Assembly: GCA_964016885.1 (NCBI GenBank)
Contig: OZ024742.1
Span: 19,654,001 to 19,718,000 of the forward strand
Length of the DNA: 64,000 nucleotides
Origin: Eledone cirrhosa
Taxonomy: Eukaryota
Direction: 5' to 3'
Shown here piece after piece: positions 6,623 to 58,584 of this stretch. The notes under the pieces are model-generated. The model did not search any database. It was given only the letters and a program-made list of their open reading frames with translations, and was not told the origin of the DNA. The translations under genes were made by a program, and so were the position numbers. How positions within the stretch are numbered: the first letter of the stretch is position 1; each line of letters opens with the position of its first letter.

Positions 6623-6655
6623 GTTGGTGCTGAAAAGTTAAAAGAGGAAAAGAGA

Positions 6656-8572: not shown

Positions 8573-8605
8573 AACGTAATCAAAATTTTACAATATTTTT
8601 TCCAA

Positions 8606-13155: not shown

Positions 13156-13199
13156 TATGTATGTATGTATATATGTATGCATGTTTGTATGTATGTTTG

Positions 13200-24893: not shown

Positions 24894-25776
24894 AGGTGTG
24901 TCAGAAAAGTTCCAGGACTGATGTTACAAAAGATTTATTTCAAACCCAAACTTCACACTAAGAGTTTTCTCCTTCAAAGTAATCCCCCTGGAGTATGTAA
25001 CTGTAATCTTAGCTCTCTGCAGCGATCAAACTTTTTTCTTCATAATTTTATATACATGTCCTCTGTTTCAGGTCGTCAAGCAATGAGTACAGGGCAACGA
25101 ACAGACTTGAAGTTTCTGATACGGTTGGGGAAAACTCCGTCAGAAGCACTGGGATTGCTGCAGCAAGTGTATGGAGATGAGACGATGTCACGCTCACGTA
25201 TTTTTGAGTGGTGCAAGATGATCCCAGGAGCGGAAGGCCCTCAGTAACCAGGACTGAGGTCAACGTTGAGCGCGTCAGGCAGATGGTGCGTAGCGATCGT
25301 TGGCCCTCTGTTCGACTGATGGCAAATGAGCTGGGTATGAATCGGGACAGCGTCTGGAAGATTCTCACTGAAGATTTGGACATGCGGAAAGTCTGCGCGA
25401 AGATTGTGCCAAAACTGCTGAACGATGACCTCAAGGGTCGACGCATGCAAGTGTGCCAGGACATCCTCGAGCGTCTTGAAACCGAACCAGACATGCTAGG
25501 GATAGTCATCACCGGTGATGAGTCATGGATCTTCGAGTACGACCCGGAAGGGAGCCGTTTTGAAGACGTGGACGACATCGAAAAGGCCGTGACGACCGAA
25601 CTGCGGAGGATCCCGGAAGAATCCTTCCAGGAGTGCATGCAAGCATGGCAGAAAAGGATGGAAAAGTGTATTAGACTCCAGGGGGATTACTTTGAATGAG
25701 AAAACTCTTAGTGTGAAGTTTGGGTTTGAAATAAATCTTTTGTGACATCAGTCCTGGAACTTTTCTGACACACCTC

Positions 25777-25777: not shown

Positions 25778-25815
<38 letters not shown>

Positions 25816-25845
25816 AACAGAAGATGGTTAAAGGAGTTCCATGTA

Positions 25846-25912
25846 TTTTATTATGCGCATTTCAAAAACAAACATCATCATGCAATAATATTTGTGTTTT
25901 CATCAGATAAAA
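25846..25912 (-). ncRNA. Minimal type I hammerhead in pLTR
   Basis: ttttat-CTGATGA-stem II-GAAA-tgcgca-TA-ataaaa. Confidence 0.85.
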
Positions 25913-28493
25913 CAGGAGGACATGATATGAAGGCTAAAAAAAAACACTTGTGGATAGTGCAGTTTTAAATCAACATATGAGAAGTAGTTTTAGATTGATG
26001 TGTGATATTGGGAAAAATATTTTATTTAGAGGGGGGGGGGATGACAAAAAGAGGAGGAGATGAGAGTGAAGGATGAGATAGAAGGAGAGATGGGTGATAG
26101 AGAGAGAGAGAGATAGTTTTTATAACTGAGAAAGATATATTGTTTTACATAGAGAGGTTGAAAACCGTTGGAAGATAATGTATAAATTAAAAGAATTGGA
26201 AAATTAACGAAGAAGGAGAGGGAGTTAATATGTATTGAGAATAATGAGTTTGATGATAGAGAGAAGAGAATAATGAATTGCGGATGAATATTCTAACGTC
26301 AAAAAAAGTGTGTATGTTTACAAGTATTATGGAAATTTGAAAATTAACGAAGAGAAAAAAATGTAAAGTTAAGGTTTGTATATTGAAGGATTTGAGAAAA
26401 ATAATGTGAAGTTAAGGTTTGTATATTGAAGGAATTGATAATATGTGCGAAGAAAAAGTTAATATGTATTGAGAATGAGTTAGATGATAGGGAGAAAAAA
26501 ATAATGAATTAAGGATGAATAATCTGGCGTCAAAACAAATGTATATGTTTACGAAGGATTTTACAAGGTGAAAATAGAGTAAGGGTAATGAGTAAACAAG
26601 TATTATAGAGTGTATAATACCCTTTGAAATAAGGTAGGAAGATGGGTATATTTTAAAAGAGGTGTATGTATATGTGCCTTTGAGAAAAAGATTCTAAATT
26701 GATAAAGAATTGAATATTAGCTGTATACTTTGTGAAATGTTTTATGGAATTTATGCAAGCAGATAGAAAACAAGTCAGTTCATCTATTTATTATAGAATC
26801 TAGATTAGAGATAATGGTAAATTTTTCATTTAGGCAGAGATTGCAGATTTTAGATATAGAACTGTTCAAGTATGAAGACGCAGAAGAAACCTTCTTCCAA
26901 AAGATGGTATATTTAATGTTTTTGTCTTTCAAGGACCATATGAGTTCTGAGAGAGCCGTGTTGGTTCTTTTAAGTTTGTATTTAAAAGATGAATGATGAT
27001 TATAGAGACGAGCTTTAAAAGAGGTGGAAGTGGAGCCAAAATAGGTGAAGGAATTGGTGTTAGTTATAACTTTACATTCATAAATTAAGTTTTTATCAAG
27101 ACAATGGTTGTTGAGAGGACATTTATTTTTAATAGGGCAATTGCAATTGCAATTAGAGAGATTATTAATGAGTGACCTAGTGTTATCTATAGAAGGAATT
27201 GGATTGGAGAAGTTGTTTGCGATAGGAATAATAGTTTCTTGATTTAGAGTTGGATTATGAATATTTAGCGAAGTTCTGTTTGACGTTGTATTTGGGTTTG
27301 CAGAAGTTAGCCTAGGGTTTACAATGACGTCGGGAGTACTATTACTATTATTATGAAATTCAGTGTTGGAAGGAAGAGATTTAGTATTTAGTATTTTATT
27401 GTTGTGTTTAGAGATAATGTTGGAAATATTGGAGGATGTAGAATAAGAAAATTTTATGGTGTGTTTGTTAAATATTTTACTATAGATATGTGAGGGAGGG
27501 AAGCATTTATTTAAGGCACTAAAGAATAATTTAGGAATATTGTTATTAATAGAGATGGAGAAAGGAGCATTATACCAGATTATGTTTTTGTATCTAGGTC
27601 TTTTATTAAAGTTATTGGAATGATCATGATTAATTATTCTACTGTAAGTTCTTCTAGAATTTGATCTTTACTATATTTGATTTAACTGGATAGCCGGCTT
27701 TAGAAAGTGCGTTATTATAGTAATTGGCGTTAGCATCAAAGATGTTTTTATTAGAAGATAGGTTAGATATTCTTTTTCCAATATTACTAACTATAGCATT
27801 CTTGATATTAGTAGGATGGTTAGATTTAAAGTTAACATAATTTAGGTTCTCATTGTTTTTATGGTAAGGGTAATATAGGCCAGTGTCAAGATTAAGAGAT
27901 ACATCCAAGAAATTAGCTAGTTTGATACTGTTATCAAATTCAATTTTTAGGTTATGTTGGTTAAAGAGATTACGTATATTGTTCTTAATAATATTAAGGT
28001 TAACTAATAATATTAAGGTTAACTAATATACAAACCTTAACTTTACATTTTTTCCTCTTCGTTAATTTTCAAATTTCCATAATACTTGTAAACATACACA
28101 CTTTTTTTTTACGTTAGAATATTCATCCGCAATTCATTATTCTCTTCTCTCTATCATCAAACTCATTATTCTCAATACATATTAACTCCCTCTCCTTCTT
28201 CGTTAATTTTCCAATTCTTTTAATTTATACATTATCTTCCAGCGGTTTTCAACCTCTCTATGTAAAACAATATATCTTTCTCAGTTATAAAAACTATCTC
28301 TCTCTCTCTATCACCCATCTCTCCTCCTATCTCATCCTTCACTCTCATCTCCTCCTCTTTTTTTCGCCCCCCCCCCTCTAAATAAAATATTTTACCCAAT
28401 ATCACACATCAATCTAAAACTACTTCTCATATGTTGATTTAAAACTGCACTATCCACAAGTGTTTTTTTTAGCCTTCATATCATTTCCTCCTG

Positions 28494-28560
28494 TTTTATC
28501 TGATGAAAACACAAATATTATTGCATGATGATGTTTGTTTTCGAAATGCGCATAATAAAA
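28494..28560 (+). ncRNA. Minimal type I hammerhead in inverted pLTR
   Basis: ttttat-CTGATGA-aaacacaaat...atgtttgttttc-GAAA-tgcgca-TA-ataaaa. Confidence 0.85.
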
Positions 28561-28693
28561 TACATGGAACTCCTTTAACCATCTTCTGTTCTTATATATT
28601 ATGTATACTCCAGTCCTACAAACTGTAGAGTGCTTCTTATCCGATATCTGCATTGCTTTATTGTACTACAATAAAACTCACCTCCTACATATA

Positions 28694-31018: not shown

Positions 31019-34000
31019 TATATTTCATCTGCCTGTCACCCACCTTGTGGATTGTCTCTCTGTTGACCACTGGCCACTGGTCTCTGTCCTCTGGGGCATT
31101 ATATTTCATCTGCCACCCACCTTGTGGATTGTCTCTCTGTTGACCACTGGCCACTGGTCTCTGTCCTCTGAGGCATTATATTTCATCTGCCTGCCACCCA
31201 CCTTGTGGATTGTCTCTCTGTTGACCACTGGCCACTGGTCTCTGTCCTCTGAGACATTATATTTCATCTGCCTGTCACCCACCTTGTGGATTGTCTCTCT
31301 GTTGACCACTGGCCACTGGTCTCTGTCCTCTGAGACATTATATTTCATCTGCCTGCCACCCACCTTGTGGATTGTCTCTCTGTTGACCACTGGCCACTGG
31401 TCACTGTCCTCTGAGGCATTATATTTCATCTGCCACCCACCTTGTGGATTGTCTCTCTGTTGACCACTGGCCACTGGTCTCTGTCCTCTGAGACTTTATA
31501 TTTCATCTGCCTGTCACCCACCTTGTGGATTGTCTCTCTGTTGACCACTGGCCACTGGTCTCTGTCCTCTGAGGCATTATATTTCATCTGCCACCCACCT
31601 TGTGGATTGTCTCTCTGTTGACCACTGGCCACTGGTCTCTGTCTTCTGAGGCATTATATTTCATCTGCCACCCACCTTGTGGATTGTCTCTCTGTTGACC
31701 ACTGGCCACTGGTCTCTGTCCTCTGAGACATTATATTTCATCTGCCACACACCTTGTGGATTGTCTCTCTGTTGACCACTGGCCACTGGTCTCTGTCCTC
31801 TGAGACTTTATATTTCATCTGCCTGTCACCCACCTTGTGGACTGTCTCTCTGTTGACCACTGGCCACTGGTCTCTGTCCTCTGAGACATTATATTTCATC
31901 TGCCTGTCACCCACCTTGTGGATTGTCTCTCTGTTGACCACTGGCCACTGGTCTCTGTCCTCTGAGACATTATATTTCATCTGCCACCCACCTTGTGGAT
32001 TGTCTCTCTGTTGACCACTGGCCACTGGTCTCTGTCCTCTGAGGCATTATATTTCATCTGCCACCCACCTTGTGGATTGTCTCTCTGTTGACCACTGGCC
32101 ACTGGTCTCTGTCCTCTGAGGCATTATATTTCATCTGCCTGCCACCCACCTTGTGGATTGTCTCTCTGTTGACCACTGGCCACTGGTCTCTGTCCTCTGA
32201 GGCATTATATTTCATCTGCCACCCACCTTGTGGATTGTCTCTCTGTTGACCACTGGCCACTGGTCTCTGTCCTCTGAGGCATTATATTTCATCTGCCACC
32301 CACCTTGTGGATTGTCTCTCTGTTGACCACTGGCCACTGGTCTCTGTCCTCTGAGGCATTATATTTCATCTGCCACCCACCTTGTGGATTGTCTCTCTGT
32401 TGACCACTGGCCACTGGTCTCTGTCCTCTGAGACATTATATTTCATCTGCCACCCACCTTGTGGATTGTCTCTCTGTTGACCACTGGCCACTGGTCTCTG
32501 TCCTCTGAGGCATTATATTTCATCTGCCACCCACCTTGTGGATTGTCTCTCTGTTGACCACTGGCCACTGGTCTCTGTCCTCTGAGGCATTATATTTCAT
32601 CTGCCTGCCACCCACCTTGTGGATTGTCTCTCTGTTGACCACTGGCCACTGGTCTCTGTCCTCTGAGGCATTATATTTCATCTGCCTGCCACCCACCTTG
32701 TGGATTATCTCTCTGTTGACCACTGGCCACTGGTCTCTGTCCTCTGAGGCATTATATTTCATCTGCCTGTCACCCACCTTGTGGATTGTCTCTCTGTTGA
32801 CCACTGGCCACTGGTCTCTGTCCTCTGAGGCATTATATTTCATCTGCCTGTCACCCACCTTGTGGATTGTCTCTCTGTTGACCACTGGCCACTGGTCTCT
32901 GTCCTCTGAGGCATTATATTTCATCTGCCTGTCACCCACCTTGTGGATTGTCTCTCTGTTGACCACTGGCCACTGGTCTCTGTCCTCTGAGGCATTATAT
33001 TTCATCTGCCTGTCACCCACCTTGTGGATTGTCTCTCTGTTGACCACTGGCCACTGGTCTCTGTCCTCTGAGGCATTATATTTCATCTGCCTGCCACCCA
33101 CCTTGTGGATTGTCTCTCTGTTGACCACTGGCCACTGGTCTCTGTCCTCTGAGGCATTATATTTCATCTGCCTGCCACCCACCTTGTGGATTATCTCTCT
33201 GTTGACCACTGGCCACTGGTCTCTGTCCTCTGAGGCATTATATTTCATCTGCCTGTCACCCACCTTGTGGATTGTCTCTCTGTTGACCACTGGCCACTGG
33301 TCTCTGTCCTCTGAGGCATTATATTTCATCTGCCTGTCACCCACCTTGTGGATTGTCTCTCTGTTGACCACTGGCCACTGGTCTCTGTCCTCTGAGGCAT
33401 TATATTTCATCTGCCTGTCACCCACCTTGTGGATTGTCTCTCTGTTGACCACTGGCCACTGGTCTCTGTCCTCTGAGGCATTATATTTCATCTGCCTGTC
33501 ACCCACCTTGTGGATTGTCTCTCTGTTGACCACTGGCCACTGGTCTCTGTCCTCTGAGGCATTATATTTCATCTGCCTGTCACCCACCTTGTGGATTGTC
33601 TCTCTGTTGACCACTGGCCACTGGTCTCTGTCCTCTGAGGCATTATATTTCATCTGCCTGTCACCCACCTTGTGGATTGTCTCTCTGTTGACCACTGGCC
33701 ACTGGTCTCTGTCCTCTGAGGCATTATATTTCATCTGCCTGCCACCCACCTTGTGGATTGTCTCTCTGTTGACCACTGGCCACTGGTCTCTGTCCTCTGA
33801 GGCATTATATTTCATCTGCCTGCCACCCACCTTGTGGATTATCTCTCTGTTGACCACTGGCCACTGGTCTCTGTCCTCTGAGGCATTATATTTCATCTGC
33901 CTGTCACCCACCTTGTGGATTGTCTCTCTGTTGACCACTGGCCACTGGTCTCTGTCCTCTGAGGCATTATATTTCATCTGCCTGTCACCCACCTTGTGGA

Positions 34001-36498
34001 TTGTCTCTCTGTTGACCACTGGCCACTGGTCTCTGTCCTCTGAGGCATTATATTTCATCTGCCTGTCACCCACCTTGTGGATTGTCTCTCTGTTGACCAC
34101 TGGCCACTGGTCTCTGTCCTCTGAGGCATTATATTTCATCTGCCTGTCACCCACCTTGTGGATTGTCTCTCTGTTGACCACTGGCCACTGGTCTCTGTCC
34201 TCTGAGGCATTATATTTCATCTGCCTGCCACCCACCTTGTGGATTGTCTCTCTGTTGACCACTGGCCACTGGTCTCTGTCCTCTGAGGCATTATATTTCA
34301 TCTGCCTGCCACCCACCTTGTGGATTATCTCTCTGTTGACCACTGGCCACTGGTCTCTGTCCTCTGAGGCATTATATTTCATCTGCCTGCCACCCACCTT
34401 GTGGATTGTCTCTCTGTTGACCACTGGCCACTGGTCTCTGTCCTCTGAGACATTATATTTCATCTGCCACCCACCTTGTGGATTGTCTCTCTGTTGACCA
34501 CTGGCCACTGGTCTCTGTCCTCTGAGGCATTATATTTCATCTGCCACCCACCTTGTGGATTGTCTCTCTGTTGACCACTGGCCACTGGTCTCTGTCCTCT
34601 GAGACATTATATTTCATCTGCCACCCACCTTGTGGATTGTCTCTCTGTTGACCACTGGCCACTGGTCTCTGTCCTCTGAGACATTATATTTCATCTGCCA
34701 CCCACCTTGTGGATTGTCTCTCTGTTGACCACTGGCCACTGGTCACTGTCCTCTGAGGCATTATATTTCATCTGCCACCCACCTTGTGGATTGTCTCTCT
34801 GTTGACCACTGGCCACTGGTCTCTGTCCTCTGAGACATTATATTTCATCTGCCACCCACCTTGTGGATTGTCTCTCTGTTGACCACTGGCCACTGGTCTC
34901 TGTCCTCTGAGACATTATATTTCATCTGCCACCCACCTTGTGGATTGTCTCTCTGTTGACCACTGGCCACTGGTCACTGTCCTCTGAGGCATTATATTTC
35001 ATCTGCCACCCACCTTGTGGATTGTCTCTCTGTTGACCACTGGCCACTGGTCTCTGTCCTCTGAGACATTATATTTCATCTGCCACCCACCTTGTGGATT
35101 GTCTCTCTGTTGACCACTGGCCACTGGTCTCTGTCCTCTGAGGCATTATATTTCATCTGCCTGCCACCCACCTTGTGGATTATCTCTCTGTTGACCACTG
35201 GCCACTGGTCTCTGTCCTCTGAGGCATTATATTTCATCTGCCTGCCACCCACCTTGTGGATTGTCTCTCTGTTGACCACTGGCCACTGGTCTCTGTCCTC
35301 TGAGACATTATATTTCATCTGCCACCCACCTTGTGGATTGTCTCTCTGTTGACCACTGGCCACTGGTCTCTGTCCTCTGAGGCATTATATTTCATCTGCC
35401 ACCCACCTTGTGGATTGTCTCTCTGTTGACCACTGGCCACTGGTCTCTGTCCTCTGAGGCATTATATTTCATCTACCGCCACCTTGTGGATTGTCTCTCT
35501 GTTGACCACTGGCCACTGGTCTCTGTCCTCTGAGGCATTATATTTCATCTGCCACCCACCTTGTGGATTGTCTCTCTGTTGACCACTGGCCACTGGTCTC
35601 TGTCCTCTGAGGCATTATATTTCATCTGCCACCCACCTTGTGGATTGTCTCTCTGTTGACCACTGGCCACTGGTCTCTGTCCTCTGAGGCATTATATTTC
35701 ATCTGCCACCCACCTTGTGGATTGTCTCTCTGTTGACCACTGGCCACTGGTATCTGTCCTCTGAGGCATTATATTTCATCTGCCGCCCACCTTGTGGATT
35801 GTCTCTCTGTTGACCACTGGCCACTGGTCTCTGTCCTCTGAGGCATTATATTTCATCTGCCACCCACCTTGTGGATTGTCTCTCTGTTGACCACTGGCCA
35901 CTGGTCTCTGTCCTCTGAGGCATTATATTTCATCTGCCACCCACCTTGTGGATTGTCTCTCTGTTGACCACTGGCCACTGGTATCTGTCCTCTGAGGCAT
36001 TATATTTCATCTGCCACCCACCTTGTGGATTGTCTCTCTGTTGACCACTGGCCACTGGTCTCTGTCCTCTGAGGCATTATATTTCATCTGCCACCCACCT
36101 TGTGGATTGTCTCTCTGTTGACCACTGGCCACTGGTCTCTGTCCTCTGAGGCATTATATTTCATCTGCCACCCACCTTGTGGATTGTCTCTCTGTTGACC
36201 ACTGGCCACTGGTCTCTGTCCTCTGAGACATTATATTTCATCTGCCACCCACCTTGTGGATTGTCTCTCTGTTGACCACTGGCCACTGGTCTCTGTCCTC
36301 TGAGGCATTATATTTCATCTGCCACCCACCTTGTGGATTGTCTCTCTGTTGACCACTGGCCACTGGTATCTGTCCTCTGAGGCATTATATTTCATCTGCC
36401 TGCCACCCACCTTGTGGATTGTCTCTCTGTTGACCACTGGCCACTGGTATCTGTCCTCTGAGGCATTATATTTCATCTGCCACCCACCTTGTGGATTG
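31019..36498. repeat. Tandem satellite/minisatellite of 81-bp and 77-bp units, about 69 copies
   Basis: Unit TTTCATCTG(CCTG)YCACCCACCTTGTGGATTGTCTCTCTGTTGACCACTGGCCACTGGTCTCTGTCCTCTGAGRCATTATA. Confidence 0.98.
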
Positions 36499-38846: not shown

Positions 38847-38891
<45 letters not shown>

Positions 38892-38936
38892 AAGTTAAAT
38901 AAAAAGTCAAATGTTTAAAATTTAGCTTCGTTTATT

Positions 38937-38991
38937 ACTGCTATATATATTTCAGTGACAGCCATCTTTGGCTGTGACCTCTTCAGGCAGT
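38937..38991 (-). ncRNA. Minimal type I hammerhead in inverted pLTR
   Basis: Reverse complement of 41719-41773. Confidence 0.85.
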
Positions 38992-41718
38992 CCGAATTAG
39001 TGTGGTATAGACAAGTACATATGTTGTTGAGGTGTATAATTTTGTCAATACTCTGATATGCCCAGTTCCTGGTTGGGTTGTTATTTCACTGAGGAACTGG
39101 AATCATATGAATTCAAACAAACGAATTTCAGTGTCAAAGGGCCTCTTCTACTCTCATTGGTCAGTTGTTAGAACATTCCTCATTCTAAGTGTTGTTATTG
39201 TTGGAGTTAGCTTAAAAAATTGATAAAGTGGTAGAAGGAACAAGGTGGTAAAGGAACAAAATAACAAAAAAAAAGTGTCAAACTTCCCATTGGTCAGTTT
39301 TGAGAGCATTCCTCAGTCAGAAGTCTATAGAATTCTTTCTGGGGTGAGGCTCCCTGTAGTGTTTGTGCTTGCTATTGTTAAGTACATTTGACCTCTACCA
39401 TAATTTCGGTCGTGTTGTTGGTTTTGTGGTCATCTTATGTCTTGCTGCTGCTGACAATTTAGAAGTATCTGTGTGTGTTTTTTCTTCATCCCTCCTGCCA
39501 CCATCTCTCATAGTGGTGGTGGTGGTGATGGTGGGAGGGGGGGGGGGGGGGGGGGGCAACCAGGTCCGTTACCTGTGCTGAGTCGCTGGAGCCCATCGTG
39601 GTGTCAAAGTTATTTGGGCCGTGAAGATAACAAAAAGCATAGCGCCCAAAGGGAAAGCAACAGTGCGGCAACCACCAGCAACCCAACAAATCTCCAACAA
39701 ATCACGACGCCCCCGACCCACACATATAGGAGACACCGAAAAATCACGTGGTACAACCCACCCTACTCAGCGGCCCTAAAAAACAGTTTGGCCCGATCAT
39801 TCTTTGGAGCACTTGATAAATGCTTCCCGAGGGACCATAGATACCACAGGATCTTCAACAGACACACTGTGAAGCTCTCGTATTCCACCACGAGAAATCT
39901 GGCCCAACACATAGCTAGCATCAACAGGAGTAGGCTTAAAAACCACACACAACCAGAAGATGGCAATACAAGCACTCAGCAGAACCATGTGAAAGGAGGG
40001 AAGGGGGGACCCAGAGCCCACCCAAGAAACCCAAACAGACCCGGGGACCCCCCCCACCGTGCCTGGGGGAAGACCAACATATAACACATAACGGGAACCC
40101 TAATCTAGGCACGCAGAGGTCGACCACCCTCTGCAACTGTAGAAACCCCGAATCATGCCCCTTGATAATGAATGCCTTAAGAAGAACCTAGTATACGGTT
40201 GTAGGGTTAAAACCCCCAACTCCGAACACCTCTACATAGGAGCCACATCAACGAGCTTTAAGGACCGCTGGTACAACCATCGCCATTCATTCAATAAGGA
40301 GGCCAAAAGGAAAAGCACGGCTCTCTCTGACCTGATCTGGAAGCTTAAGCTGGACAGGACCCCGTACTCTCTGGCCTGGTAGATAATCAGGAAAGTACCA
40401 CCCGATAAAGGGGGATCTTGCATATGCAAACTATGCCTGAACGAGACCCTCGAGATACTAAGAGGTGGAAGCGGCCTGATAAACCTCAGAACCAACTTCT
40501 TCGGGACATGCAGACACCTTAGAGCTGGGACCTTCCTCAAGTAGCAACACAAGAAGATGAGAACTCCCCTCAAGCTATAGGGACTTCTACAGAACATGTA
40601 AACACCTCTCGGCCAGACCTCTCTCAAGTTATATGGGCAGTAACAACACCCTGGGTCGTGAACTCCCCTCAAGCCATAGGGAACAACCCAGGCTGAGCAG
40701 ACACCATGATAGCCTAGAGATTGAATCGGACACAGCCATTATAATTTGGCCAACATCTATATAACACAAACACATTTTAATTTACTTGATTTCTGATTTT
40801 CAAGTTCCAATTTTAAATCTTGATTTCTCTTTATTAATTTGTTATTTGTTTTCTGCTCTCTTCACTGTATCACCTTATATTTATTTTTAAGTTGAGATTG
40901 ATTATAACACAAACACATTTTGTTTGATTATCTTATTTTAACATCTTGTCCCTCATACCAATCTATCCAACATATTTCTGACCTAGAGATTGGTTATAGC
41001 ACACACACACTTTATCCTACTTTATTTGAATCCTCATTTTATTTTTCACTTCTCCATATTCATTTTCATTACTTTTTCACCAATTTTTCATTCATTCTTT
41101 ATTCTTTATTCTCTATTTATTATTTGTTTTCTGTTTTCTTCATTTATTGCCTTATATTTCTTCATATACATGGAAGAACCCCCCTCCCACCATCACCACC
41201 ACCACCACCACTATGAGAGATGGTCGCAGGAGGGATGAAGAAAACACACACACAGATACTTCTAAATTGTCAGCAGCAGCAAGACATAAGCTGACCACAA
41301 CACCAACAACACTACCAAAATTATGGTAAAGTAACAATAGCAAACACAAACACTACAGGGAGCCTCACCCCAGAAAGAATTTCTATAGACTTCTGACTGA
41401 GGAATGCTCTCAAAACTGACCAATGGGAAGTTTGACATTTTTTTGTTATTTTGTTCCTTTACCACCGTATTCCTTCTACCACTTTATCAATTTTTTAAGG
41501 TAACTCCAACAATAACAACACTTAGAATGAGGAATGTTCTAACAACTGACCAATGAGAGTAGAAGAGGCCCTTTGACACTGAAATTCGTTTGTTTGAATT
41601 CATATGATTCCAGTTCCTCAGTGAAATAACAACCCAACAAGGAACTGGGCATATCAGAGTATTGACAAAATTATACACCTCAACAACATATGTACTTGTC
41701 TATACCACACTAATACGG

Positions 41719-41773
41719 ACTGCCTGAAGAGGTCACAGCCAAAGATGGCTGTCACTGAAATATATATAGCAGT
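41719..41773 (+). ncRNA. Minimal type I hammerhead in pLTR
   Basis: actgc-CTGAAGA-ggtcacagccaaagatggctgtcact-GAAA-tatata-TA-gcagt. Confidence 0.88.
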
Positions 41774-41819
41774 AATAAACGAAGCTAAATTTTAAATATT
41801 TGACTTATTTATTTTAGTT

Positions 41820-41885
<66 letters not shown>

Positions 41886-43010: not shown

Positions 43011-43049
<39 letters not shown>

Positions 43050-43295
43050 GGTGACACCTATGCAGGTATAGCTGGCATCCTCTAAGGTATATCTCTTTGG
43101 AGGTATCTTGGGTAATTTAATGATAGGGACCCCGGTCCCATCATCTCATTTCTACAGATGAGTAAACTGGAGCAACGTGAAATAAAGTGTCTTGCTCAAG
43201 GAAACAACACATTACCCGGTCCGAGAATTGAACTCACAACCTTTCGATTGCAAGCCCAATGCTATAACCAGTAAGCCATGCGCCTTCACACACAC

Positions 43296-43332
<37 letters not shown>

Positions 43333-43339
43333 ATCTATC

Positions 43340-44496
43340 TATATTGTTATACTTGGGGAGGGTCATATTTGCGTAATATTGCCAGAATTAATAACAGAAC
43401 ACACTCACTGTTTGGTTGGTTTTCGCTTCTCGTTGTCTTTTATATCTGCGATCTAACTTGCTCGGTCCTCAATGTTGCCATTGGCTGACCGGCGGTCAAA
43501 AATAATACATATACAATATAGACACAAACACATATATATAGTCCTTTTAAGAAAACCCACTGTACCAATAGGAAATGTATCATATGTAAGGTGAACCCCC
43601 GGATAAACTGTAAAACTAGAAACGTAGTCTATAGCATAAGATGTACAGAGGGTACTTGCAGAAACACGACAACAACATACATAGGTGAGACAGCTCGTAG
43701 CATAGGTGAAAGGATAGACCAACACTGGGGGGAACTAAAAGGACGAAAAAACGGGTCAGTACTATACGAACATGCTAGACAACAACATGACGGTAACATA
43801 GACAACATAGAAATTAGAATAATATCTAAACATAGGAATGACCCAGCAGATAGGCAAATCAGAGAGGCCAGTGAAATAGAAATTAGAAGACCAAAGCTAA
43901 ACAGAAAGAATGAGTGGAACAACAACAACACCCAAACAAACAACACTGACCTAAGAGAAGTATAAATAAATAAGTAAATAAAATTAAATAAAATAAGATA
44001 AATAAATACATACACAAGCACAATAACAACAAGCACATAAACACACACTAGTCACCCAACAGACACAACACTATACACACTAGTCACACATCACACATAA
44101 CACTATACACACACACAAACGCATGCGCAAAGAAGACAAAATAAAATAAGATAAACAAACAAGCAAATAAATAAATAAATATATAGACAGACTGAATAAA
44201 AAATGGCGTAGACATACAACACAACAGGAGGAACAATGAATATAACACCACTGACGATGTTGCAGATGTGCAACGAAAGATTTATGTAAATTATGTAAAC
44301 TATATATATGTGTTTGTGTCTATATTGTATCTGTATTATTTTTGACCGCCGGTCAGTCAATGGCAACATTGAGGACCGAGTAAGTTAGATCGCAGATATA
44401 AAAGACAGCGAGAAGCGAAAACCAACCAAACAGTGAGTGTGTTCTGTTATTAATTCTGGCAATATTACACAAATATGACCCTCCCCAAGTATAACA

Positions 44497-44500
<4 letters not shown>
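43340..44500 (+). mobile_element. Short Penelope-like element (Neptune-type GIY-YIG) with inverted pLTR
   Basis: ORF 43591-43965 NCKTRNVVYSIRC...YIGET...RIDQH...REA...LN; inverted arms 43342-43540 / 44301-44500; CTGACGA-tgttgcagatgtgcaac-GAAA core at 44251-44278. Confidence 0.9.
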
Positions 44501-44534
<34 letters not shown>

Positions 44535-45433: not shown

Positions 45434-45748
45434 GTTAATAAAAGGAATTCCAACTTTGTCTGATTTACTCGTTTTATTTATAATCCTTTAAAATATATAA
45501 TGGTATTAGAATAAAATAGTATGGTAGAATATTAAATGTTAAGTGTTAATTGAACAGTTGAAAATTGCAAACTTGACTGTCACCACAGAATATGAACCTG
45601 AAGATTGCGAAAGCATGAAAGTACTTGTTCAATTAACACTTAACATTTAATATTCTACCATACTATTTCATTCTAATACCATTATATATTTTAAAGGATT
45701 GTAAATAAAACGAGTAAATCAGACAAAGTTGGAATTCCTTTTATTAAT
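45434..45748. mobile_element. ~315-bp non-coding fold-back element with hammerhead
   Basis: ~122-bp inverted arms 45434-45556 / 45626-45748. Confidence 0.85.
45593..45631 (+). ncRNA. Compact 39-nt type I hammerhead
   Basis: tgaac-CTGAAGA-ttgc-GAAA loop-gcat-GAAA-gtac-TT-gttca. Confidence 0.88.
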
Positions 45749-45783
45749 ATAATCTTCTATACACAATCATATACACCCGTGTA

Positions 45784-45853
<70 letters not shown>

Positions 45854-46892
45854 GAAAGAAAAGATATATATATATATATATAGAGAGAGAGATAGTTAGA
45901 GAGAGAAAGAAAGAGAGCAAGAGATAGAGAGAGCAAGATATAGAGGGAGAGAGTAAAAGAGAGATAGCACCAGAGAGAGACAGAAAAAGCAAGAGAGCAA
46001 GAGAGAGAGAGAGGGGGTGAAGGTGAGATAATCAGAGAGAGAGAGAGAAAGAAAGAGAGCAAGAGATAGCTCCAGAGAGAGAAAGAGAGAGAGAGAGAGA
46101 TAGCTCCAGAGAGGGAGAGATATAGAGATAGCTCCAGAGAGAGAGAGAGGGAGAGATAGATCCAGAGAGAGAAAGCGAGAGAGAGACTATACTATAATGC
46201 AGGACTGTCAGATATGCACGTGCGAAGAAGAAGGAAGAGAAGAAGAAGAAGAAGAAGAAAAGTGAGACAATTGGCCATTTTAATTCTCACATAATTTCCT
46301 CCCTCCAGAGAAATGTTTTAAATATCTGAATAGTTCTTTTATTGGTTTCTCTAACATTATCAGTAAAACTAAATATACATTACATTGAGAGAACACAGAT
46401 CAGCACCTTTTTTTGAAACAATAATGTCAGTATTTTCTTTGATATATTAAAGAAATGACATACACACATATATATATATACATACATTCATACATATTTA
46501 GACACACACACATATACATACATATTAGACACACACACACATATATACATAAATATATATATACATTCATTCATACATATATAGACTGGGTGAAGGCGCA
46601 TGGCTTCGTGGTTAGAGGATTGGGCTTGCAATCGAAAGGTTGTGAGTTCAATTCTCGGACCGGGTGATGTGTTGTTTCCTTGAGCAAGACACTTTATTTC
46701 ACGTTGCTCCAGTTTACTAAGCTGTAGAAATGAGATGATAGGACTGGGGTCCCTATTATTAAATTACCCAAGACACCGCCAACGAGATATACTGTGGGGG
46801 AGGCCAGCTAAACCTGCATAGGTGTGAGCTGTAACAACATATATAGACACACACACACACACACACACATACATACATTCATACACATACAT

Positions 46893-50689: not shown

Positions 50690-52643
50690 ATCATCATCAT
50701 CATCATCGTTTAACGTCCATATTCCACGCTTGCATGGGTTTGGACGGGAATTTTCCCACTTGAGGCAAGATTGGTTGTCTTGCTCATATAGGACTGTCTG
50801 GCGGATTTTCTACAGCTGGATGCCCTTCCTAACACCAACCACGTTTACAGTGTGGACTGGGAGGTTTTTACTGTGTTACCTACACGGCCACATTACAGCG
50901 TGGACTGTGTGTTTTTTTTGTCGTGACACCTACACGACCTCATTTGTTTCGGACTGGATGTTGTGGTACCAACATAACTTTACATTGAAAGGGGTGGTGT
51001 GGATGGGGTGGGGTAGTGTGACGAGGGTGTATTTTTGTTAGAGGTGCCTACTGACTGTGGTAGGTTTCACTTTGTACTTAGGTAAGGCGGGTCTTCTGTA
51101 TTACTGTGTAGCGCCAAAGATCTCGGTCCAGTGACATTGTCTTGGAGAGGTGTAAGTGTGTAAGGTCAGAATTTATCAAGTCGTCCCAGGTTTTTCTGGG
51201 TCTGCCTACTCCGTGGCTACCGTCCATTTTTATTGCCCTGCACTTTTTTATACAGCTGTCGTCTTTCATGCGCATCACGTGACTGTACCAACGTAGTCTT
51301 CTCTCGAGTAAACAACATCTGATCCCTCTTATTTCTAATTTTTCCCTTAGTTCGTTTATGCTTTGCCGTTTACGTATATTACTATTACACATCCAGCGGA
51401 GCATGCAAGCTTCGTTCCTCTCCAGTCTGCGTATATCCTCTGCACACAATGTCCAGGTCTCACTGCCATGTAACATTGCTGTTCGTATGCAGGCATCATA
51501 CAGCCTGCCTTCAATTTTTAGAGAGAACCCTTTAGCGGCTAATAGTAGTATAAGCTCTCTGAACTTTTTCCATCCAGTTCTGACTCTAGCTACTGTACTT
51601 TCAGAGCACCCTCCCCCACTACTAATTTTGTCACCCAGGTAACGGAAGCTGTCCACTATTTCTATAGAACCATCTGTGCAATGGAATGAGCTAGTATTCT
51701 GTGGGCACTTGCTGCTACTTATTTCACCAGAGCACCGGCCACATATAAAATCTATAATCTTAGTTAGCTTACTTGTGATCCCACTACATCTTTTATGCAC
51801 CCATACTTTGCATTTTGGACATAAAATGGAGTTTCTGCCTACTCCTTTCCTACACACTGAGCATGGCCATTTCCCGGATGGGGCCCGTGCCCTATTTTCC
51901 TTCCTACAAACTAGAACTTTAGTCTTAGACAGGTTAATTTTAAGGCCTTTTGATTCTAGGCCATGCTTCCATGTTTGGAATTTCTTCTCTAGTTCAGCCA
52001 TTGATTCAGCTATGAGCGTTAGATCATCTGCGTATAGGAGTTCCCATGGGCAGCCGGTCTTGAACTCCTCTGTTATAGCCTGAAGGGCAATAATAAATAG
52101 TAGGGGGCTAAGAACGGAGCCCTGATGAACACCAACTTTTACGCTATTATATTCGTTGTTAATTCTAACCTTGCTGACTGTTTCTTTATACATGGCTTGT
52201 ATAGCTCTCACAAGCCATTCATCAACACCTAGTTTTCTAAGAGCCCACCAGATAATGGAACGGGGGACTCTGTCAAAGGCTTTCTCCAAGTCGACAAAAG
52301 CTAAGTATGGGAGTTTACTTTTAGCTAGGTACTTCTCCTGTAGTTGTCGTACAATGAAAAGAGCGTCTGTGGTACTTTTCCCTGACACAAACCCGAACTG
52401 CATTTCATCTAGATCAATTCGCTCTCTGATTAGTTGCACTATTACTTTTTCTGTGACCTTCAAGACCTGGTCGATTAATTTAATGCCTCTATAGTTACCC
52501 CTATCTAGGGCATCTCCTTTACCCTTGTAGCAGTTAATGATGATGCTGCTACGCCAGTCCTTCAGAACAACCCCATTCTGTATGACTTGGTTTACTATCC
52601 AGGTGACCATAGTGTGTCCCACCGTTCCAGAAGCTTTCAGCAT
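50688..52643 (-). mobile_element. 5'-truncated RTE LINE with intact RT ORF (51078-52643) and PHD-like finger insert
   Basis: NYRGIKL, DLEKAFD, VHQGSVLSP, LLYADD, CSVC..C..C...H..C...C..C, RLRWY.HV.R, GRP.KTW; (GAT)n tail. Confidence 0.95.
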
Positions 52644-52650
52644 TTCAGCA

Positions 52651-53851
52651 TTCCATCCAGGAAATGGCCATGCTCAGTGTGTAGGAAAGGAGTAGGTAGA
52701 AACTCCATTTTATGTCCCAAATGCAAAGTATGGGTGCATAAAAGATGTAGTGGGATCACAGGTAAGCTAACTAAGAACATAGATTTTATATGTGGCCGGT
52801 GCTCTGGTGCAATAAGTAGCAGCAAGTGCCCACAGAATACTAGCTCATTCCATTGCACAGATGGTTCTATAGAAATAGTGGACACCTTCCGTTACTTGGG
52901 TGACAAAATCAGCAGTGGTGGAGGGTGCTCTGAAAGTACAGTAGCTAGAGTCAGAACTGGATGGAAAAAGTTCAGAGAGCTTATACCACTATTAGCTGCT
53001 AAAGGGTTCTCTCTAAAAATGAAAGGCAGGCTGTATGATGCCTGCATACGAATAACAATGTTACATGGCAGTGAGACCTGGGCATTGTGTGCAGAGGATA
53101 TATGCAAACTGGAGAGGAACGAAGCTTGCATGCTCCGCTGGATGTGTAATAGTAATATACGTGAACGGCAAAGCATAAACGAACTAAGGGAAAAATTAGA
53201 AATAAGAGGGATCAGATGTTGTTTACTCGAGAGAAGACTACGTTGGTATGGTCACGTGATGCGCATGAAAGACGACAGCTGTATAAAAAAGTGCAGGGCA
53301 ATAAAATTAGACGGTAGCCACGGAGTAGGCAGACCCAGAAACACCTGGGACGACCTGATAAATTCTGACCTCACACACTTACACCTCTCCAAGACAATGT
53401 CACTGGACCGAGATCTTTGGCGCTACACAGTAATACAGAAGACCCGCCTTACCTAAGTACAAAGTGAAACCTACTACATTCAGTAGGCACCTCTAACAAA
53501 ATACACCCCCGTCCCACTACCCCCACCCCATCCACACCACCCCTTTCAATGTAAAGTTATGTTGGTATCACAACATCCAGTCCGAAACAAATGAGGTCGT
53601 GTAGGCGTCACAACAAAAAAAACACACAGTCCACGCTGTAATGTGGCCGTGTAGGTAACACGGTAAAAACCTCCCCAGTCCACACTGTAAATGTGGTTGG
53701 TGTTAGGAAGAGCATCCAGCCGTAGAAAACCCGCCAGACAGTCCTATGCGAGCGAGACAACCACTCTTGCTTCAAGTGGGAAAACTCCCATCCAAACCCA
53801 TGCAAGCGTGGAAGATGGACGTTAAACGATGATGATGATGATGATGATGAT
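52651..53851 (+). mobile_element. Shorter RTE LINE copy fused head-to-head with the previous one
   Basis: Reverse complement of about 50688-51882, with its own (GAT)n tail. Confidence 0.95.
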
Positions 53852-54011
53852 TTCCGAAGGCTCAGCCGCCTTACCCGTCTTCATATGTTTGATTGCCTTA
53901 CTTATTATACTACCTTCGACTAACATTGCTGGTCCCTCTATTGGATCGATGTAGGGGAGACTGTCTTTCTCCCATTTATTCTCCTCATTTAGTAGCCTTT
54001 CGTAGTGACAC

Positions 54012-54052
<41 letters not shown>

Positions 54053-54203
54053 CATCTTTTCACGTCCATTTTGCACATTAACATGGGTTAGACGGGTTGT
54101 CCTATTTGAGGCAAGTCAGGTCAGGTGACTGTGTCTAGTTCATATGGAACTCTTTTTGACTAGGTTTCTACAGCTAGATGCCATTGCTAATACCAACCAC
54201 ATT

Positions 54204-54450
54204 TACAGTGTGGACTGGGTGCTTTTTGTTGTGACACCTACACGACCACTTTACAGTGTGGACTGGGTGCTTTTTGTCGTGACTCCTACACGACCATTTT
54301 ACAGTGTGGGCTGGGTGCTTTTTGTCGTGACTCCTACACGACCATTTTACAGTGTGGGCTGGGTGCTTTTTGTCGTGACTCCTACACGACCATTTTACAG
54401 TGTGGGCTGGGTGCTTTTTGTCGTGACTCCTACACGACCACTTTACAGTG
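54204..54450. repeat. 48-bp tandem repeat (5 units plus a partial) inside an RTE 3'-UTR remnant
   Basis: TACAGTGTGGRCTGGGTGCTTTTTGTCGTGACTCCTACACGACCAYTT at 48-bp spacing. Confidence 0.9.
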
Positions 54451-54638
54451 CAAGGGGGGTGGGAACAGAAGTGTGTGGGCGGTTGTTGGAGCGTGGGAGG
54501 TGTGTGGAAGGGAGGTATAGTGTTTAAGAGGTGCCTAACAGATGTATGTTTATATATATATATAGATAGATAGAGAGAGAGAGAGAGAGAGGTAGATAGA
54601 TAGATAAATAGATATATAAATAGAAATAATATACATAC

Positions 54639-54801
54639 TTTGAAGATGCAAGCAGTTTCCAGACTTTTAGTTCATAACCTCCGGTGGCCAGCAGTAAATT
54701 TCCATTGGAGATTGAACCTCTACACCATGTGATGCTCTTGATCTGACTAGTAGCATCATCATTTAATGTACCCAGGTAGTCTTCACTTGGTAGTGAATGA
54801 A
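54639..54801 (-). CDS. WD40-repeat protein, internal exon
   Basis: ttttcacag / gtatg splice sites; VHSLPSEDYLGTL...LLATGGYELKVWK. Confidence 0.88.
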
Positions 54802-57112
54802 CTGTGAAAAATTAAGGTATCAAATAATCAGAAGTGTCAACAAATCTTACAGAAATATTTTTTCTATTTTTCTGGTGCCACAATTGCCCCGGAACCCCAG
54901 CATTGAGGGGTTGGGGGGTGGGGGCCCACAAGTGACGGCTGTAGCAATTTATTTGTGCCCTCAGCTGGTTTTTTTAGTTTTAGGATGGTTAGACATTTTT
55001 AATCTAATACCTGTCTGTATAACTTTTCAATTCCAGTTACTTGCCCCAAGCTAACCTTGATATGTAAATTGGAGGGTTTTCTGTGTATTCTAATGTTTTG
55101 TGTATGAGGGGCCCCCAAACCTGGAGTGTCCTGGGCCTCCTAAGGTCTAAATCCAACCTTGTTTGGATCAGTGGTTAGATGCACAAAAATTGGTGCCTTA
55201 TTTACTTGGGGCTAAAAATATCTGATCCTTTGAATTCTATCTCCAAACGTTTCATCCAACCCATTCCAACATGGTTAAACAGACATAATGATAAAGATAC
55301 TATTTCTTCAGATCTATATATTTGGTAGTGGTGATGGTGGGGTTGATCTATTGTGGTCCTTATGTCTTTTAGAAAGGGGTCAGAGTCTATTTTAATTGTA
55401 ATAACCTCCAGCTATACAACTTAGAGACAGGAGAGCATGGTCGGATTTAATGGTGGGAGGGGAGGGGTTAAAGGAGGCAATTGCCCCAGGCTCCCTGCAG
55501 TTCCACCACTGACGGCCATACCAATTTATTTGTGCCCTCAGCTGGGCTTTTTAGTTTTAGGATGGTTAGATTTCTTGAATTCAATACCTGTATGTATAAC
55601 TTTTCAATTCCAATTAATTGCGCCAAGCTAACTTTGATATGTAAAATTTGGGGGGTTTGCTGTGTATTCTAATTTTTCATGTAAGAGCCCCCCCCCAACG
55701 TGAAGTGCACCGGGCCCTCCAATGTGTAAATCCAACCCTGCAGAAGGACAGAGAAATTCTCTACTATAAAAATTGTGTTGCATTTATTAACATGATGTCT
55801 AATTTAGGTACAAGGCCAGCAATTTCGGAGAGGAGGAAAGTTGATAAAATCAACCTCCGTACTTTACTGGTACTTTATTCTATCGACCCTGGAAGGATAA
55901 AAGGTAAAGTTGAACTCAGCAGGATTTGAACTCAGACCGTAAAGAGTCGGAAAAATATTGCTACTCATTTCATTCACCGCTCTGACAATCCACCGCCATA
56001 CTGCATTTATAATATTTATCATTATTAAATATTGGCAGTATCGGTAGAGGGTCGGATGCCATGTTTTGACGTATAGTTACGGCCCTTGCCTTTATGAGTT
56101 CAAATCCCGCCGAGGTTAACTTTGCCTTTCATCCTCATGGGGTCGATAAAATAAAGTACCAGTAATGCTCTGGTTAATTTGCAGGCCTTGTGCCAAAAGT
56201 AGAAACAATTATTAAATAAAAAAAAGTGATTATATTATGCAAGGTGCAAGGGAGATAATTAGTTTATATATCATATATTTCATAAGCTTCTTGTATGTTG
56301 TGGCATAAAATAGTGATAGAATAGCTAGATTCACACCATTTACCATCATCATCACTATCACTTTTACGTCCCCCTTTTCCATGTTGGCATGGGTTGGACG
56401 AGATTGTTTGAGACAATGTTTTACAGCTGGATGCCTCTATGAAATGTGTACTTATTCCAGAAACTGGGATACACGTGGCACAAACATAAACAATAAGAGC
56501 AATATGTATGGTCCCTGTACTCCTAAAGGAGTTGTTGGGACGCCATATTGACATCCAGCGTTTCTAGGGCATTTTTTTGAAACACCTGATGGTGCCCTTA
56601 TCCTCCAGGTCTGAATGCAGCAGATTTCTTCCAGAGAAGGATTGAATGAATGGAAATGAGAAAGAGATATTGAGAAACAATCGACCCCAGTTTAAGACTG
56701 GTACTTTTTTTTATCGAATTCGAAAGGATGAAAGGCAAAGTTGACCTTGGAGAGCTGGAATGAACACTACAAAGTATTCTATCGAATGTTGTATCGACTC
56801 TGCCAATTCGCTGTCTTATAAGAGGAATATAAAAAAGTCTAAAGTCTGTCTCGAGTCCAGAGGCTTATCTTGGTTTCTGTGGTGTGAAGTGACTGAAAGT
56901 ACAAGACTCCATCTTGGACAAGACGCCAGTCCATCGCAGGGTTAAACCCAAATCTATTGCTAGTACTCATTTTCAGCTGAGTATATGGGAGCAATGTGAA
57001 ATGAAGTGTTTTGCTCAACCCAGCCCAGGAATCAAACCCATGACATTATGATCGTAAGTCGAACACACTTACCACTAGACCACACACATCTACATAAAAG
57101 GAATATACCCAC

Positions 57113-57235
57113 CGTTAATATATGCAAGTCCTTTATCCAGGTCATAAGCAGAAGAATACAGAGTGTCTTGGTAGTAGAAGATGGCATCTGTCACTCCAAA
57201 TTTGTCTGTGTGGTTTAATAGTTTAGAAACAATTC
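57113..57235 (-). CDS. WD40-repeat protein, internal exon
   Basis: ctctttag / gtggg splice sites; GIVSKLLNHTDKFGVTDAIFYYQDTLYSSAYDLDKGLAYIN; phase 1-1. Confidence 0.85.
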
Positions 57236-57267
57236 CTAAAAGAGAAGAAATACCAAATTTTAATGGA

Positions 57268-58330
57268 ATCATCATCATCATCATCGTTTAACGTCCATAT
57301 TCCACGCTTGCATGGGTTTGGACGGGAGTTTTCCCACTTGAGGCAAGAGTGGTTGTCTTGCTCGCATAGGACTGTCTGGCGGGTTTTCTACGGCTGGATG
57401 CCCTTCCTAATACCAACCACATTTACAGTGTGGAACTGGGAGGTTTTTACCGTGTTACCTACACGGCCACATTACAGCGTGGACTGTGTGTTTTTTTTGT
57501 CGTGACACCTACACGACCTCATTTTTGGATGTTGTGGTACCAACATAACTTTACATTGAAAGGGGCGGTGTGGATGGGGTGGGGGTAGTGGGACGGGGGT
57601 GTATTTTGTTAGAGGTGCCTACTGACTGTAGTAGGTTTTACTTTGTATTTAAGTAAGGCGGGTCTTCTCTATTACTGAGTACCGCCAAAGATCTTGGTCC
57701 AGTGACATTGTCTTAGAGAGGTGTAAGTGTGTGATGTCGGAATTTATCAAGTCGTCCCAGGTTTTTCTGGGTCTGCCTACTCCGTGGCTACCGTCTATTT
57801 TTATTGCCCTGCACTTTTTTATACAGCTGTCGTCTTTCATGCGCATCACGTGACCATACCAACGTAGCCTTCTCTCGAGTAAACAACATCTGATCCCTCT
57901 TATTTCTAATTTTTTCCTTAGTTTGTTAATGCTTTGCCGTTCACGTATATTACTATTACACATCCAGCGGAGCATGCAAGCTTCGTTCCTCTCTAGTCTG
58001 CGTATATCCTCTGCACACAATGTCCAGGTCTCACTGCCATGCAACATTGCTGTTCGTATGCAGGCATCATACAGCCTGCCTTTCATTTTTAGGGAGAACC
58101 CTTTAGCGGCTAATAGTGGTATAAGCTCTCTGAACTTTTTCCATCCAGTTCTGACTCTAGCTACTGTACTTTCAGAGCACCCTCCCCCACTGCTGATTTT
58201 GTCACCCAGGTAACGGAATCTGTCCACTATTTCTATAGAACCCTCTGTGCAATTGAAAGAGCTAGTATTTTGTGGGCACTTGCTGCTACTTATTGCACCA
58301 GAGCACCGGCCACATGTAAAATCTATGTTC
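57268..58330 (-). mobile_element. Third 5'-truncated copy of the same RTE family
   Basis: ORF 57649-58227 nearly identical to the C-terminus of the 51078 ORF; same 3' UTR (also solo at 60595-60972). Confidence 0.93.
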
Positions 58331-58584
58331 TTAGTTAGCTTACCTGTGATATATATATCTATATATAAATTTCTGTGATTCTGTCACAACACGTAAAGAG
58401 AGAGGAGTAATTTGACTACTTCATACTACTACTCTCTCTTTACAACAAAAACAGAGTGCTGCTACCACTGTTATGACTACCTCATACTACTCCCCTCTCT
58501 TTACAATAAAAAAAGGGTGCTGCTACCACTGTTGTTATGACTACCCCATACTACTCCTCTCTCTTCCTATATAAATGTATGCAT

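What the first reader, a model, noticed from the sequence alone, without database searches (positions are those of the whole stretch)
45434..45748. Miniature non-coding hairpin element with an intact 39-nt hammerhead at the loop
Seen: ~122-bp inverted arms around a ~70-nt loop holding a very compact HHR with a GNRA-capped stem II. The predicted cleavage site (after 45626) coincides with the start of the right arm, and the left arm ends at the complement of stem I 3' strand. The long hairpin therefore competes with ribozyme folding. Inference: either an extremely truncated PLE insertion whose inversion point was set by the HHR-cleaved RNA 5' end, or a retrozyme/MITE-like non-autonomous family.
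Basis: partly seen in the sequence, partly recalled or inferred. Interest (0 to 1): 0.75.

Follow-up and report, generated by a model that had tools for sequence, protein, structure and literature searches.

The report
Penelope stubs record hammerhead cut site
This small DNA hairpin is one of thousands of stub insertions of a known kind of jumping gene (a Penelope-like retrotransposon); most stubs of the family begin at one point that is likely its transcription start, and a minority begin at its predicted ribozyme cut, which likely shows the ribozyme cuts in living cells, although this copy's own turning point does not prove it.

Summary
The arms (122 bp, 98%) and the 39-nt minimal hammerhead are real. 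The hairpin is a 352-bp stub of a high-copy Penelope-like element (5,055 exact hammerhead 40-mers). Its autonomous parent encodes ORF1 plus RT-CxxC-GIY-YIG. The element runs on to about 45786 through the PLE 'tail'. It is not a MITE or retrozyme: junctions vary, and the tail sits on one arm only (103 of 112 hairpins). The right unit starts 73 nt upstream of the cut and 31 nt after a TATA box; 62 of 101 sampled arms start there (inferred transcription start). Only 3 of 64 comparable hairpins share this copy's junction, which lies on a 3-nt microhomology, so cleavage is unproven for this copy (about 35%). Family-wide, a second class of ends sits at the cut: 166 inversions there against 51 and 13 in control windows, 32 of 50 within -2..+3, and 7 copies start at +1 directly after (TA)n. 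This likely records in vivo cleavage; a local quasi-palindrome and RT stalling remain rivals. No RNA data were found. The scan noted similar patterns before in other families of this genome.

The parts
45435..45556 (-). Left (inverted, short) arm: antisense copy of the pLTR from the core 3' end (no tail) to -1/+1 of the hammerhead cut; joined on the left to a (GT)n tract
45554..45748 (+). Right unit: pLTR from the inferred transcription start (ACAG at -73 from the cut) to the core 3' end
   Evidence: 25 of 101 arms start exactly here, 62 of 101 within -74..-62
45554..45556 (.). Inversion junction: 3-nt microhomology ACA shared by the left-arm end and the right-unit start
   Evidence: sequence against the natural upstream sequence in L087
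45593..45631 (+). Minimal type I hammerhead motif (5-bp stem I, CUGAAGA, U.U plus 3-bp GAAA-capped stem II, GAAA, palindromic AGUACU helix III); predicted cut after 45626; activity untested
   Evidence: each position matches in 64-70 of 70 arms
45749..45786 (+). PLE 'tail' (about 38 nt) on the right arm only; in the parent it leads into ORF1; followed here by (TA)n/(GA)n

Best explanation
The hairpin is a stub insertion of a high-copy, endonuclease-bearing Penelope-like retrotransposon, likely made when the element's enzyme copied the short 5' end of its RNA from both sides of a cut in a microsatellite and the two copies were joined head to head. Shown: family membership, an autonomous parent, two preferred outer ends (core and tail, one on each arm), a dominant inner end 31 nt after a TATA box, and a minor inner end at the hammerhead cut. 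Inferred: one cDNA starts at the tail site and the other at the core site (the two internal initiation sites measured for the Anolis element, PMC11167929). Each cDNA runs until the RNA ends, at the transcription start for uncut RNA (about 60% of sampled arms) or at the ribozyme cut for cleaved RNA (about 3-6%). The 3' ends are then trimmed and joined at short microhomologies. In this copy the right cDNA reached the start. The left one ends at the cut position either through cleavage (about 35%) or through trimming to the ACA microhomology (about 65%). The stub lacks the promoter and is likely a dead end.
For: Family: 5,055 exact hammerhead 40-mers and 7,347 exact 3' anchors. Parent L087 has a 449-aa ORF1 and a 775-aa frame with RVT_1 (E 2.9e-6), a C-x4-C-x2-C linker and GIY-YIG (E 3.3e-6). 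5' ends of 101 arms: 62 at -74..-62, 22 longer than 300 nt, 17 elsewhere; TATA at -104. The tail is on exactly one arm in 103 of 112 hairpins. It is on the short arm alone in 28 of 64 and on the long arm alone in 27 of 64, and 26 against 20 of 50 in the cut class; a single cDNA folding back could not simply give its copy a tail it lacks. In 16 of 112 hairpins the arms differ at two or more subfamily-diagnostic sites. Cut-site ends: 166 head-to-head loci in the window around the cut against 51 downstream with the same 70-nt gap and 13 upstream with a 50-nt gap. The longer arm starts within -2..+3 in 32 of the first 50. Two exact junctions account for 63 matches (35 + 28), against about 5-6 for the commonest control junction (by eye). 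Starts directly after (TA)n: 7 independent at G+1 against 17 over 16 other G/C positions (tallied by eye; Poisson p=1.2e-4). Of the 50 cut-window loci, five start at -3..-8 or at -14..-18 outside the AAGTACTT palindrome class, so the upstream limit is sharp.
Against: No RNA evidence bears on the start or the cut. The sequence just after the cut is a quasi-palindrome (TGTT/AACA). The commonest junction has a 4-nt microhomology spanning -1..+3 and the second maps to +3, so both also fit a stop inside stem I. The anchors of the control windows differ, and the upstream control used a shorter gap. In 80 of 112 hairpins the arms show no diagnostic difference (12% for random pairs), which fits fold-back as well as one RNA copied twice. 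Many solo copies carry a short fold-back at the start, so snap-back does occur. The motif lacks G10.1-C11.1 and its monomer fold is weak (-4.2 kcal/mol). For the Anolis element, cleavage was dispensable in vitro and no reads ended at the cut (PMC11167929). For this copy the enrichment is only p=0.03.
Confidence: 0.7

Rival explanations
1. Same PLE origin, but the inverted arm arises by self-priming: one cDNA folds back at its 3' end and is copied into a hairpin, and the endonuclease later removes the tail from one arm (close to the self-priming and 'EN-mediated resolution' proposals in PMC3846280 and PMC8557442).
For: Arms carry identical diagnostic alleles in 80 of 112 hairpins. Short fold-backs at the start are common. 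The two commonest cut-site junctions and the full-length inverted copy L087 read as small snap-back hairpins.
Against: The tail is on the short arm alone as often as on the long arm alone. Arms differ at two or more diagnostic sites in 16 of 112 hairpins. The Anolis protein extends both target strands and has two start sites (PMC11167929).
Confidence: 0.25
2. The peak of ends at the cut is not cleavage: the reverse transcriptase stalls in folded stem I, or the TGTT/AACA quasi-palindrome traps broken or trimmed ends, and the match to the cut is coincidence.
For: The two commonest junctions are compatible with an end at +3 or +4. The motif is atypical (U.U at 10.1/11.1). Minimal PLE hammerheads cleave poorly in vitro (PMC4209133).
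Against: Non-inverted copies start at G+1 directly after (TA)n, where no fold-back helps. Other palindromes upstream and downstream draw far fewer junctions. The upstream limit is sharp at -2/+1. The GTCAATT start is not a subfamily allele (0 of 178 natural contexts).
Confidence: 0.25
3. For this very copy, the left arm was copied from a hammerhead-cleaved RNA and the right arm from an uncut one.
For: The left arm ends in an interval that includes the exact cut. Three independent copies share the junction. 12 of 64 such arms end at -2..+3 (p=0.03). Cut-site ends exist in the family.
Against: It needs two RNAs in different states, yet the arms agree at all 11 diagnostic sites. Another 3-nt microhomology (CAG at -29) has 2 direct junctions against 3 here. 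Only 1 of 64 ends exactly at +1 without extra matching bases.
Confidence: 0.35
4. The hairpin is a self-propagating non-autonomous unit (MITE or retrozyme).
For: Small, non-coding, high copy number, carries a hammerhead.
Against: No tandem monomers. The junction differs from copy to copy. Copies with the same junction differ in alleles and tail side. The ends are asymmetric, and all of the sequence is the parent's own pLTR.
Confidence: 0.03

Closest known systems
EN+ Penelope-like element insertions with an inverted 5'-truncated pLTR and a one-sided 30-40 bp tail (Craig et al. 2021, PMC8557442; Arkhipova et al. 2013, PMC3846280; passages read)
   Same: Head-to-head inverted pLTRs, a tail at one end, (TA)n targets, and a TATA plus start site inside the pLTR.
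   Different: Here the insertion holds no ORF at all, and the inner ends were tallied: a main peak at the inferred start and a minor peak at the hammerhead cut. The passages I read do not report this.
Neptune/Nematis-type PLEs (CX2-5CxxC linker before GIY-YIG)
   Same: Parent L087 has RT, then C-x4-C-x2-C, then a C-terminal GIY-YIG, and an overlapping upstream ORF1.
   Different: No tree was built, so Neptune versus Nematis is not resolved.
Anolis Poseidon PAc (Frangieh et al. 2024, PMC11167929; parts 1-2 of 4 read)
   Same: Two internal RT start sites bracketing the tail, extension of both target strands, AT-rich targets, and a hammerhead just upstream of the tail.
   Different: The PAc ribozyme was dispensable in vitro and no reads ended at its cut; this family shows genomic ends at the cut.
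Minimal PLE hammerheads (Cervera and de la Pena 2014, PMC4209133; parts 1-2 of 4 read)
   Same: Type I, short stem I, palindromic helix III implying dimeric cleavage.
   Different: Stem II is only 3 bp, and U.U replaces the conserved G10.1-C11.1 pair.
R2 retrotransposon 5' HDV-like ribozyme (PMC11331408; passages read)
   Same: Self-cleavage fixes the template's 5' end and so the 5' junction; join and snap-back junctions occur.
   Different: In R2 the cut is the regular 5' end. Here it would be a minor alternative to the element's own transcription start.
Animal non-LTR retrozymes (bioRxiv 10.64898/2026.07.22.740005; part 1 of 5 read)
   Same: Non-coding, type I hammerhead, PLE pLTR sequence.
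   Different: No head-to-tail tandem units were found here.

Membership tests
EN+ Penelope-like element | Parent encoding RT and C-terminal GIY-YIG between pLTRs | tested here: met
   L087, (RVT_1 27.6 bits, just under the 29.6 cut-off; GIY-YIG 27.8 bits, above 22.6)
EN+ Penelope-like element | Inverted 5'-truncated copy and a 30-40 bp tail at one end only | tested here: met
   Window 45749-45786; one-sided in 103 of 112 hairpins
EN+ Penelope-like element | Hammerhead in the pLTR; microsatellite targets | tested here: met
Neptune clade | CX2-5CxxC linker between RT and EN | tested here: met
   Seen in the L087 translation; shared with Nematis according to PMC8557442
Neptune clade | Placement in the RT phylogeny | not tested
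   No reference PLE proteins were at hand; no tree was built
Minimal type I hammerhead | CUGANGA, GAAA, UH and stems I and II, palindromic helix III | tested here: met
Minimal type I hammerhead | G10.1-C11.1 pair | tested here: not met
   U.U at 45605/45616 in nearly all copies (70 and 69 of 70)
Minimal type I hammerhead | Self-cleavage activity | not testable with these tools
   Only the indirect genomic footprint
Non-LTR retrozyme | Head-to-tail tandem units, each with a hammerhead | tested here: not met
   0 same-strand neighbours among 137 hits in 108 loci of 1.4-3 kb
Non-LTR retrozyme | Circular RNA | not testable with these tools
   No RNA run was listed
MITE | Fixed structure with symmetric terminal inverted repeats copied as a unit | tested here: not met
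   Asymmetric ends and variable junctions

The most novel reading that the evidence does not exclude
The inner ends of this family's stubs are a genomic map of the element's RNA 5' ends: the capped start and the hammerhead cut. The cut-site class, which includes a full-length inverted copy joined at the cut (L087), is direct fossil evidence that a minimal animal PLE hammerhead cleaves in the germline and that cleaved RNA is a transposition template, with the inverted structure built by priming from both sides of the target.
Probability: 0.6. Interest if true: 0.65.

Novelty: new member of a known kind. Interest (0 to 1): 0.45.

Why it matters
The element itself is ordinary. What hammerheads do in endonuclease-bearing PLEs is stated to be unclear (PMC8557442); they cleave poorly in vitro (PMC4209133), and no cut ends were seen in Anolis reads (PMC11167929). 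If a few percent of insertions begin at the cut, the ribozyme is active in vivo but is not the normal route. Junction counting in high-copy genomes then becomes a simple read-out of both ribozyme activity and transcription start. The one-sided tail, on either arm with equal frequency, also gives a testable model for how PLEs build their inverted ends. Five literature searches listed no paper reporting such cut-site junction peaks; subscription papers and supplements were not seen.

Tried and rejected
Rfam scan: no match. RNA evidence: no RNA holder was listed, and laying four contig sets could not show starts or ends; neither counts for or against expression. The first BLAST-type search suggested that the unit begins with TTGAACAG; this was selection bias from the query, and unbiased samples show the start is ACAG. 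The sequence upstream of L002 was first taken for the parent's ORF end; it is an unrelated high-copy repeat. The (TA)n pattern returned overlapping duplicate matches and was replaced. Before the solo tally, tandem duplicates and places found in both calls were counted once. A subfamily lacking one T after the cut was considered as the source of the GTCAATT junction and rejected (0 of 178 natural contexts). A target-site duplication could not be judged because both flanks are microsatellite. The paper on dimeric cleavage of small PLE hammerheads (Lunse et al., recalled) is not held and is not used. The uniform null for the cut class is crude; the control windows are the better comparison.

Full report
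Observation. The inverted arms lie at 45435-45556 and 45626-45747 (122 nt, 98%). Between them is a 39-nt minimal type I hammerhead at 45593-45631, with the predicted cut after 45626. Positions below are counted from that cut (+1 = G45627). Rfam does not detect the motif. Stem II is 3 bp with a GAAA loop and is closed by U.U rather than G10.1-C11.1. Helix III is the palindrome AGUACU, as in the dimer-type minimal hammerheads of PLEs (PMC4209133, parts 1-2 read). In the whole hairpin the predicted pairing of stem I is 0.0, against about 0.1 in the right unit alone.

Family and parent. The window lies in a 3.0-Gb animal genome. The hammerhead 40-mer occurs 5,055 times exactly and a 29-nt 3' anchor 7,347 times. 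Of 12 long stretches fetched, L079, L080, L081 and L087 hold long coding parts of the parent. L087 has a 449-aa ORF1 overlapping a 775-aa frame with RVT_1, a C-x4-C-x2-C linker and GIY-YIG, between copies of the same pLTR. That linker marks the Neptune and Nematis clades (PMC8557442, passages); I built no tree. In the parent the pLTR carries CCAAT-like boxes and TATAAAAG at -104, and it continues past the core end through a roughly 38-nt tail into ORF1. The window's element therefore spans 45435 to about 45786: a right unit from 45554 (-73) through the tail, and an inverted left arm without the tail.

Where arms begin. I took the first 100 places plus one arm found beside them (101 arms). Of these, 25 start exactly at -73 and 62 at -74..-62; 22 run more than 300 nt upstream; 17 start elsewhere, 4 of them (3 loci) at -1..+2. 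Position -73 is 31 nt after the TATA box, so I infer the transcription start; no RNA data test this. The fixed point of the window's hairpin is thus this start, not the cut.

This copy's junction. All 64 genome matches in which an inverted arm ending between +19 and -29 joins a unit starting at -73 were fetched. Their left-arm ends are spread out. The window's junction occurs 3 times, in copies with different alleles and tail sides, so these are separate events. It sits on the 3-nt microhomology ACA; another 3-nt microhomology at -29 has 2 direct junctions. Ends within -2..+3 number 12 of 64 against 6.7 expected (p=0.03). The arms agree at all 11 diagnostic sites. I put the chance that cleavage set this copy's left end at about 35%.

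A second class of ends at the cut. Head-to-head inversions anchored at +20..+31 with at most 70 nt between the anchors number 166 loci. The same design downstream gives 51, and a 50-nt design upstream, across the ribozyme, gives 13. Among the first 50 of the 166, the longer arm starts within -2..+3 in 32; three loci with deletions were mis-scored at +12 or +14 by the script and kept as misses. Two exact junctions give 35 and 28 matches (three pairs are neighbours, so about 60 are independent), against about 5-6 for the commonest control junction (by eye). Several loci have both arms ending at +1..+3 (L315, L236, L334). L087 is a full-length inverted copy joined at the cut. Non-inverted copies give a test free of fold-back. 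Where an element's first G or C follows (TA)n directly, 7 independent copies start at G+1 and 17 start at 16 other G/C positions (tallied by eye; p=1.2e-4). Against this reading: the sequence after the cut is a quasi-palindrome, the two commonest junctions also fit an end at +3, the control anchors differ, the motif is atypical, and no RNA ends were seen. I rate cleavage as the cause of this peak at about 70%. It would concern roughly 3-6% of arms (a rough figure, as the anchors differ).

How the hairpins form. The tail is on exactly one arm in 103 of 112 hairpins. It is on the short arm alone in 28 of 64 and on the long arm alone in 27 of 64, and 26 against 20 of 50 in the cut class. The Anolis PLE protein nicks and extends both target strands and starts at two internal sites that bracket the tail (PMC11167929, parts 1-2 read). 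I infer that two cDNAs, one from each site, are primed on opposite sides of the break, run off the RNA's 5' end and are joined at microhomologies. The arms usually share alleles (80 of 112 with no diagnostic difference, against 12% of random pairs), which fits one RNA or one donor locus; 16 of 112 differ at two or more sites. Fold-back self-priming (PMC3846280, passages) remains a rival, since short fold-backs are common at the start.

What it is not. There are no head-to-tail monomers (0 among 137 hits in 108 loci), so it is not a retrozyme as defined in 10.64898/2026.07.22.740005 (part 1 read). Ends and junctions are not fixed, so it is not a MITE. The copy lacks the promoter, so competition between the long hairpin and the ribozyme likely has no role (inference).

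Prior knowledge. Inverted truncated pLTRs with a one-sided tail are the known PLE structure (PMC8557442, PMC3846280). A ribozyme fixing a retrotransposon's 5' junction is known for R2 (PMC11331408, passages). Five searches listed no paper reporting PLE insertion ends at the hammerhead cut; supplements and subscription papers were not seen. Earlier unreviewed notes of this scan on other families in this genome reach similar readings. They are not counted as support.

Verdict. An ordinary stub of a known kind of element. The interest lies in the family-wide footprint at the cut, which bears on an open question. Interest 0.45.

Noticed in passing
L087:1019-9733 (G000:C1:21871000-21880999): Two near-identical full-length copies (775-aa frames open on both arms) joined head to head at the hammerhead cut; the tail continues into ORF1 on both arms.
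   Followed up: partly
window 43332-44509: Another inverted PLE stub: 211-bp arms (97%) around a GIY-YIG-type fragment (43522-43965, 27% identical to the L087 endonuclease); my motif scan found no hammerhead in it.
   Followed up: partly
window 25798-28607: 588-bp inverted arms with hammerhead motifs at 25906 (-) and 28500 (+) around PLE-like ORF pieces (26780-28022, minus strand); a further hammerhead motif at 29742.
   Followed up: no
window 38850-41864: About 700-bp inverted arms (94%) with hammerhead motifs at 38986 (-) and 41724 (+) and a PLE-like ORF piece at 39455-40084.
   Followed up: no
loci (e.g. L092, L095, L105, L113, L125): Many copies without a long inverted arm carry a short fold-back of about 20-30 nt at the inferred start, suggesting frequent brief snap-back of the cDNA end.
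   Followed up: partly
L002:1235-1520: A stub of this family abuts an unrelated high-copy repeat (1,792 candidates) at a 13-nt shared word; that repeat also forms a 2.25-kb tandem array on C4 near 349.90-349.92 Mb.
   Followed up: partly
window 31019-36498: Tandem array of 77/81-bp units, about 95% alike.
   Followed up: no
window 830-8587, 10554-13288, 25208-25699, 51078-58383: Fragments of LINE-type retrotransposons (endonuclease and RT frames) and a mariner-like transposase piece, named from recalled motifs in the translations; the window is transposon-dense. SINE-like copies lie at 43049-43338 and 46541-46830 in opposite orientation.
   Followed up: no
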